64,000 nucleotides of DNA, from contig OZ024766.1 of assembly GCA_964016885.1 (NCBI GenBank), positions 12,028,001 through 12,092,000 of the forward strand. Direction: 5' to 3'. How positions within the stretch are numbered: position 1 is the stretch's first letter; each line of letters opens with the position of its first letter. A program made the position numbers and the translations under genes. Below are positions 23,340 to 23,394 of the stretch, piece after piece. Below the pieces are notes generated by a model. That model was given only the letters and a program-made list of their open reading frames with translations. It made no database searches and was not told where the DNA came from. The DNA is from Eledone cirrhosa. Lineage: Eukaryota.

Positions 23340-23394
23340 ACTGCCTGAAGAGGTCACAGCCAAAGATGGCTGTCACTGAAATATATATAGCAGT
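23340..23394 (+). ncRNA. Type I minimal hammerhead ribozyme, family A
   Basis: Stem I ACUGC/GCAGU; CUGAAGA 23345-23351; stem II 23352-23377; GAAA 23378-23381; palindromic UAUAUA stem III; AUA cleavage triplet ending at 23389. Confidence 0.82.

What the first reader, a model, noticed from the sequence alone, without database searches (positions are those of the whole stretch)
23352..23377. Shared extended stem II with a C-C mismatch in all four hammerhead families
Seen by manual pairing: family A GGU-C-ACAGCCA/UGGCUGU-C-ACY, family B GGA-C-GUACUG/CAGUAC-C-UUC, family C AAG-C-GC/GC-C-CUU, family D GUCC-C-ACC/GGU-C-GGAC. The primary sequences differ, yet a C-C opposition sits at pair 4 (pair 5 in D) each time. 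Inference: a conserved structural element, such as a tertiary contact with stem I, a dimer interface or a protein site. I do not recall it being described, but cannot check novelty here.
Basis: partly seen in the sequence, partly recalled or inferred. Interest (0 to 1): 0.75.

Follow-up and report, generated by a model that had tools for sequence, protein, structure and literature searches.

The report
Transposon hammerheads keep one unpaired cytosine
One branch of a known jumping-gene family in this animal genome carries tens of thousands of self-cutting RNA motifs that keep a single cytosine unpaired while the base pairs around it have changed, likely as a weak point and binding site that lets the element's own protein control cutting.

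Summary
The C·C oppositions are real: pair 4 of stem II in A, B and C, pair 5 in D. These are type I hammerheads in the pseudo-LTRs of Hydra-type Penelope-like retroelements. Genome-wide, 45,583 of 50,619 core+UAUAUA matches have C·C and only 289 have C-G. Flanking pairs covary; synonymous RT sites are saturated, so the site is under selection.

Three corrections. (1) It is not in all families: the window holds two intact hammerheads without it (30959+, 31298-); so do 19 of 29 host clusters and all 40 scorable clusters from other organisms. (2) Pair-4 families form one RT clade (98/92), and D's pair-5 C·C arose separately. (3) The constant is the unpaired 5' C: its partner is C, U in one large family, A in a small one, and G in no amplified family seen.

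Best mechanism (inferred, 0.4): the C weakens the core-proximal three pairs and is read by the element's RT-EN protein, gating cleavage. No stem I partner was found and cleavage is untested. Seven literature searches found no description, but Lünse 2017 was unavailable. The scan noted the same feature elsewhere in this genome (e1-8670794). New variant of a known kind.

The parts
23340..23394 (+). Family A type I hammerhead (stem I 23340-23344 with 23390-23394; predicted cut after A 23389)
23345..23351 (+). Catalytic core box CUGAAGA
23352..23377 (+). Extended stem II: 3 pairs, C·C (23355 opposite 23374), 7 pairs, 4-nt loop
23378..23389 (+). GAAA box, 8-nt self-complementary stem III segment (predicted dimer helix) and AUA cleavage triplet
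   Evidence: palindrome covaries across families
23000..23054 (-). Inverted copy of the family A hammerhead, C·C at 23039/23020
22944..23725 (.). 5'-truncated, ORF-less Penelope-like insertion: inverted arms 22944-23159 and 23235-23450 (96%), plus-strand tail ending in (TA)n; the end coordinate is approximate
36826..36880 (+). Family A hammerhead, older copy, C·C at 36841/36860
36679..36733 (-). Family A inverted copy with G12 lost (predicted inactive), C·C kept
37619..37680 (-). Family B hammerhead, C·C at 37664/37640
37757..37819 (+). Family B inverted copy with G12 lost, C·C kept
36025..36091 (-). Family C hammerhead, decayed copy, C·C at 36073/36048
30349..30395 (-). Family D hammerhead: U3·A8 core variant, 4-bp stem then C·C at pair 5 (30380/30369); separate lineage
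30952..31011 (+).
31262..31304 (-).

Best explanation
These are pseudo-LTR hammerheads of one host-specific clade of Hydra-type Penelope-like retrotransposons, in which a cytosine four steps up stem II is kept unpaired by selection, likely as a weak hinge that the element's own RT-endonuclease protein recognises to switch cutting on. Shown: the element type, the clade restriction, the invariance of the 5' C, a non-G partner, and covariation of the flanking pairs. Predicted by folding: the mismatch isolates the three core-proximal pairs from the stable upper hairpin, so free RNA is often unfolded at the core. Inferred: two copies dimerise through the 8-nt palindrome of stem III; the protein binds the exposed C and clamps the base of stem II; cleavage after AUA then occurs only in the ribonucleoprotein. 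D's pair-5 C·C is a separate case. It is probably a remnant of the ordinary loop-2 contact site, kept open when the stem was extended.
For: Element type. RT-EN ORFs of up to 745 aa with RWR, DKT, CxCX5C, CxxC and CxH lie upstream of C·C hammerheads, matching the Hydra description. L180 is a full pLTR-ORF-pLTR tandem plus an inverted copy, with the motif at all four positions. Selection. 3' partner of a 5' C among core+GAAATATATA matches: C 45,583, U 1,032, A 767, G 289. The listed C-G rows are scattered over all families. 3,197 matches lack the 5' C; the 100 listed rows are scattered mutants, a spurious inner core box and chance hits. In alignment A4 (17 rows), pairs 2, 3, 5, 6, 7 and 9 are never unpaired and change on both sides, while pair 4 is unpaired in 17 of 17; covariation is 0.72 against 0.29 shuffled and at most 0.19 slid. 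Four-fold sites among three lineages are 20-33% identical, with C in all three at 3 of 69. Among the seven 3' regions compared, pair-4 families match each other only around the hammerhead. Identity specificity: the partner varies (C, U, A) while the 5' C does not. Folding: monomer probability of pairs 2-3 is 0.03-0.98 (median about 0.5) in 9 mismatch representatives and at least 0.96 after a C-G change in silico, about 4-7 kcal/mol. Precedent: the Anolis PAc hammerhead cleaves only when PAc protein is added (PMC11167929, passages and section 3 part 2 read).
Against: There is no direct evidence of protein binding, cleavage or expression. Most Hydra hammerheads, in this genome and elsewhere, do without the mismatch, so it is not needed for the life cycle in general. 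PAc is a Poseidon-clade element, not a Hydra one, and its cleavage was dispensable for insertion in vitro. One mismatch family is predicted to fold well as it is (0.97), and one non-mismatch family folds poorly (0.06). The dimer cofold predictions are erratic in all families. The sample of independent lineages is small: the tree holds 7 pair-4 rows in roughly three deep lineages. Family A is placed only by its EN (66% identical to A2's, one locus), and family B's RT link was not established. At the finding's own locus the inverted arms are predicted to form a >200-bp hairpin that would mask the ribozyme in a read-through transcript.
Confidence: 0.4

Rival explanations
1. The unpaired C is an RNA tertiary docking site that contacts stem I, replacing the loop-2/stem-I contact of canonical hammerheads, and so speeds cleavage.
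For: It lies about where natural stem I-II contacts form, just above a 4-bp stem II (PMC2553840 passages; PMC4209133). In D's clade the position-5 site stays irregular in different ways: C·C, a 3' bulged U, a 3' bulged A. Base-specific invariance fits a contact.
Against: No conserved G or covarying base was found in the stem I strands of the 10 mismatch clusters. Stem I length varies from 2-3 to 13 contiguous pairs, and U1.7 is present in 7 of 10 mismatch clusters and also in 10 of 19 others. The known conserved contact uses an A on the 3' side of loop 2, not a 5' C.
Confidence: 0.25
2. The mismatch is a purely thermodynamic brake that keeps the ribozyme slow so that full-length template RNA survives; base identity does not matter.
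For: In silico C-G repair raises core-proximal pairing to at least 0.96 in all 9 representatives tested. Pair 1 is also weak or mismatched in many families. No amplified C-G family was seen.
Against: A pure brake would let the 5' base drift to A or U, yet it is C in 10 of 10 clusters and 17 of 17 aligned rows while synonymous sites are saturated.
Confidence: 0.15
3. The C is conserved for a reason outside the ribozyme, such as a DNA promoter element in the pseudo-LTR or a signal on the opposite strand.
For: PLE pseudo-LTRs carry promoters (PMC6765202 passage). In L180 the motif lies about 210 nt upstream of the next open frame.
Against: The neighbouring bases vary freely and in compensating pairs, which leaves no linear motif. 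Avoidance of G on the opposite strand of the hairpin is a property of the folded RNA.
Confidence: 0.1
4. The mismatch is a frozen accident inherited from one ancestral element and has no function.
For: The pair-4 families are one clade, so A, C and probably B are not independent observations.
Against: An unpaired neutral site should change faster than paired neighbours, yet it is the only invariant stem II column. C is shared by three lineages at only 3 of 69 four-fold sites.
Confidence: 0.05

Closest known systems
Hydra-clade Penelope-like elements and their hammerheads (Craig et al. 2021, PMC8557442; passages, section 11, supplement parts 1-2 incl. File S2 read)
   Same: C-terminal GIY-YIG-type EN, RWK-like and DKT motifs, CxCX5C linker, (TA)n insertion, type I hammerhead near the 3' end with palindromic stem III and an often mismatched first pair of stem II.
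   Different: The 26 Hydra rows of File S2 show short or fully paired stem II and, by eye, no C·C. Here one clade has an extended stem II with an unpaired C at pair 4 and a fixed 8-nt stem III palindrome opening with U-A.
Minimal PLE hammerheads (Cervera and De la Peña 2014, PMC4209133; main text parts 1-2 and supplement parts 1-2 read, figures not seen)
   Same: Long helix II, weak palindromic helix III implying dimers, AU-rich flanks, inverted nearby pairs, and a U3-A8 core variant like family D.
   Different: Their consensus has an extra base after A9 and G10.1-C11.1; the pair-4 clade has neither. By eye none of the 56 rows of Fig. S3 has C·C, though one sea-urchin row shows a C·A at pair 4.
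PAc (Poseidon) protein-assisted hammerhead (PMC11167929; passages and section 3 part 2 read)
   Same: A PLE hammerhead inactive as free RNA and active with the element's protein, which is the model proposed here.
   Different: Different PLE clade; its ORF starts inside stem II; no binding determinant was reported in the parts read.
Canonical Schistosoma and sTRSV hammerheads with loop-2/stem-I contacts (PMC2553840; passages read)
   Same: Same core; the contact lies above a short stem II, where D's C·C lies.
   Different: Their conserved contact is a Hoogsteen A-U pair from a terminal loop, not an internal C mismatch in an extended helix.

Membership tests
Type I hammerhead ribozyme | Core CUGANGA, GAAA, NUH in order with open stem I | tested here: met
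   D keeps the core through U3·A8 in its copies
Type I hammerhead ribozyme | Three helices supported by covariation | tested here: met
   14 of 19 counted pairs change on both sides; 0 of 500 shuffles reach the covariation score (related sequences, so not a probability)
Type I hammerhead ribozyme | Rfam Hammerhead_1 at gathering score | tested here: not met
   No hit at gathering in the whole window; in 21900-31500 only D scores 20.1 bits against a cut-off of 34. The model has 45 positions, shorter than these motifs.
Type I hammerhead ribozyme | Self-cleavage | not testable with these tools
   needs a bench assay
Minimal PLE hammerhead (Cervera 2014) | Palindromic helix III implying a dimer | tested here: met
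   UAUAUA, UAUGUA, UGAUCA and UGCGCA stay self-complementary, 100% of cells paired
Minimal PLE hammerhead (Cervera 2014) | Extra base between 9 and 10.1 and conserved G10.1-C11.1 | tested here: not met
   Pair 1 is G-U 6, A-U 5, G-C 2, unpaired 4 of 17; registers slid by one column pair only 31% of cells
Hydra-clade PLE | Single ORF with RT and C-terminal GIY-YIG-type EN, RWK-like and DKT motifs | tested here: met
   Read directly. Pfam gave 0 families for the 583-aa L054 frame.
Hydra-clade PLE | CxCX5C linker with CxxC and CxH around the EN end | tested here: met
   against the description
Hydra-clade PLE | Hammerhead in pseudo-LTRs, tandem or inverted layout, (TA)n targets | tested here: met
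   L180, L298, L054; window
Hydra-clade PLE | Groups with published Hydra proteins in an RT tree | not tested
   The trees used host ORFs and metagenome homologs only; no published Hydra protein was included
Non-LTR retrozyme | Short head-to-tail non-coding repeats each with a hammerhead | tested here: not met
   Window copies are inverted, truncated element ends, not tandem units

The most novel reading that the evidence does not exclude
The unpaired cytosine is a protein-read switch: the retroelement's RT-endonuclease binds it and turns an otherwise under-folded dimeric hammerhead on. That would make this clade a natural protein-gated ribozyme with a one-base determinant, and a direct way to test what PLE hammerheads are for.
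Probability: 0.3. Interest if true: 0.65.

Novelty: new variant of a known kind. Interest (0 to 1): 0.4.

Why it matters
The role of hammerheads in Penelope-like elements is open: they cleave poorly as free RNA (PMC4209133) and, in one case, need the element's protein (PMC11167929). This clade offers a one-nucleotide handle, picked out by evolution, together with intact-looking 745-aa ORFs and natural C·C, C·U and C·A variants. It makes 'brake versus docking site versus protein site' directly testable with a few point mutants. It is a structural detail of a known system, not a new class of element.

Tried and rejected
Alternative register with an extra base after A9: breaks the second pair in several families, and the slid controls pair 31-51% of cells. 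A slipped inactive fold that uses the 3' C: it is the MFE of the window's family B copy, but by inspection it is not available to A, so it is not a general explanation. Watson-Crick partner in stem I: none conserved. AAUAAA after the cut site: also in families without the mismatch. Overlap with the ORF start: none in L180. Dimer interface: rejected only by geometric reasoning, as the two stems II point away from each other across stem III. Cofold dimer probabilities: uninformative. Family B RT link: the L110 EN lies 3.2 kb upstream of a B motif, but none of 12 loci with 1.5-kb flanks reached a downstream hammerhead, so it is unresolved. The L330 ORF was first labelled as a C·C family and then unlabelled because the link failed. 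Row 'L017_famA' is mislabelled; it is a C·U-family ORF. One representative (GGAGG...) was a mutated copy and was left out of the folding summary. Hydra homologs in viral contigs: none; first metagenome scan: none. Pfam: no family. Literature searches gave no description of the mismatch. The search cannot match 'C·C' written with a dot, figures are not held, and Lünse et al. 2017 (PMC5785218) could not be read, so prior description is not excluded.

Full report
Observation. The stretch 23352-23377 is stem II of a type I hammerhead: CUGAAGA at 23345, GAAA at 23378, an 8-nt palindrome, an AUA triplet and a 5-bp stem I. It pairs G-U, G-C, U-A, then C·C (23355/23374), then seven pairs, and ViennaRNA gives this as the MFE. 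Two further intact hammerheads, E (30959+) and F (31298-), have no such mismatch, so four of six intact-core families in the window carry it. Rfam misses nearly all of them.

Scale. The window lies in a 3.0-Gb animal genome (G000). The pattern core + 16-40 nt + GAAATATATA matches 50,619 times against 228 in the control. With a C at stem II position 4 on the 5' side, the opposite base is C in 45,583, U in 1,032, A in 767 and G in 289 matches. 3,197 matches lack the 5' C; the classes overlap slightly. Only the first 100 rows of each were listed. The C-G, C·U and no-C rows are scattered over all families, as expected of mutations after insertion. About a third of the C·A rows (roughly 35 by eye) are one distinct low-copy family. 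A sister pattern with stem III UGAUCA or UGCGCA matches 28,134 times (control 1) and comprises a C·C family and a large C·U family. So the constant is an unpaired 5' C with a non-G partner.

What carries them. Upstream of these motifs lie RT-endonuclease ORFs with RWR, DKT, CxCX5C, CxxC and CxH motifs. These match the Hydra clade of Penelope-like elements as described by Craig et al. (PMC8557442 section 11). L180 shows the full pLTR-ORF-pLTR tandem with an inverted copy, the hammerhead in every pLTR. The window's family A insertion is an ORF-less, 5'-truncated inverted pair ending in (TA)n. Its arms are predicted to form one long hairpin in a read-through RNA, so this particular copy is probably inert. 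Family A is tied to a Hydra EN at one locus, 66% identical to that of family A2, whose link is seen in 6 of 14 search loci and two more. Family B's RT was not pinned down.

Distribution. My descriptor found 445 hits in 275 host sequences (1.58 Mb, chosen largely by searches for these families, so not a random sample). An earlier version of the scan gave 0 hits on reversed sequence. The hits fell into 51 clusters, 29 with at least two hits. Ten have the pair-4 mismatch (9 C·C, 1 C·U); the other 19 have a standard pair there. In 77 Hydra-type loci from metagenome contigs, 55 gave a descriptor hit (control 3) and none showed C·C; pair 4 was standard in 40 of 40 scorable clusters. By eye, no C·C appears in the 26 Hydra rows of Craig's File S2 or the 56 rows of Cervera's Fig. 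S3, though one sea-urchin row has C·A at pair 4.

Ancestry. In an RT tree of 28 rows (16 host, 12 of the 58 usable metagenome rows), host elements form one side of a 100/100 branch. The seven pair-4 rows form one clade (98/92). D nests (100/99) with three families that lack C·C; the root is at the midpoint between host and metagenome rows. So the pair-4 feature arose once, and D's arose separately. In D's clade, stem extensions keep position 5 irregular in different ways (C·C, a bulged U, a bulged A). That is where canonical loop 2 begins and where the known stem I contact forms (PMC2553840). I infer that D's mismatch is a relic of that site.

Selection. Shared ancestry alone does not explain the invariance. 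Four-fold sites among three pair-4 lineages are 20-33% identical and are C in all three at 3 of 69 sites. Their 3' regions align only around the hammerhead. In 17 representatives, the 5' C is the only invariant stem II column. Pairs 2, 3, 5, 6, 7 and 9 are never broken and change on both sides, pair 4 is never paired, and the stem III palindrome covaries. An unpaired neutral base should change faster than paired ones, not slower (inference).

Mechanism. Folding predicts that the mismatch cuts off three weak core-proximal pairs: their probability is about 0.5 at the median (range 0.03-0.98, nine representatives) and at least 0.96 after an in silico C-G change; most other families are above 0.9. 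That fits a brake, but a mere brake would not fix the base as C. No conserved stem I partner was found. I therefore favour a combined model (0.4): a weak hinge whose exposed C is bound by the element's own protein, which licenses dimer cleavage. The precedent is the protein-assisted PAc hammerhead (PMC11167929), where cleavage was nonetheless dispensable for insertion in vitro. Rivals are RNA docking (0.25), a pure brake (0.15), a DNA-level constraint (0.1) and a neutral relic (0.05). No binding, cleavage or expression was shown here.

Novelty. PLE hammerheads, dimer palindromes, U3-A8 cores and the Hydra clade are known. Seven searches found no description of this mismatch, but figures and Lünse et al. 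2017 were not available. Of PMC7229834, PMC6765202, PMC3088659 and PMC13282606 I saw only passages; of the 2026 retrozyme preprint, a term search and part 1 of 5. I reached my reading before seeing it, and it is not independent support. Verdict: real, selected, clade-specific; a new variant of a known kind; interest 0.4.

Noticed in passing
window 22030-22298 and 22657-22925: A separate inverted repeat (99%) whose end carries GAAA before CUGAUGA, the reverse of the normal hammerhead order. It may be the scrambled hammerhead that earlier scan notes describe in this genome.
   Followed up: no
L169 4247-6385 minus (also L171, L172, L174, L182): A Hydra-type family (713 aa) with no hammerhead found by my descriptor in these five loci. 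L169's 3' region has a duplicated ~110-nt segment and ends in the same terminal motif as the window's family A element.
   Followed up: partly
G000:C1:18414609-18414649 and many rows: Low-copy family with C·A at pair 4 of stem II; its ORF link was not examined.
   Followed up: no
L311 380-4132 minus: Eight copies of a short hammerhead at about 469-nt spacing, a retrozyme-like tandem array.
   Followed up: no
L004 1047 plus: U3·A8-core hammerhead-like motif with a C·C at pair 6 of stem II; seen once.
   Followed up: no
window 35666-35868 and 17035-17097: Degenerate hammerhead copies of two more families (an inverted pair related to E, and a minimal type).
   Followed up: partly
window 16515-16551 minus: A family A copy truncated inside stem II, next to (TA)n.
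   Followed up: no
window 23781-27386 plus: A frameshifted LINE-like endonuclease/RT inserted just after the family A element's (TA)n tail.
   Followed up: no
window 53327-53384, 53702-53759, 29422-29479: tRNA-like heads of a repeated SINE-like element (weak Rfam tRNA hits).
   Followed up: no
L183-L259: Hydra-type elements from metagenome contigs very often have U·U as the first pair of stem II (20 of 44 clusters) and longer stem III palindromes.
   Followed up: partly
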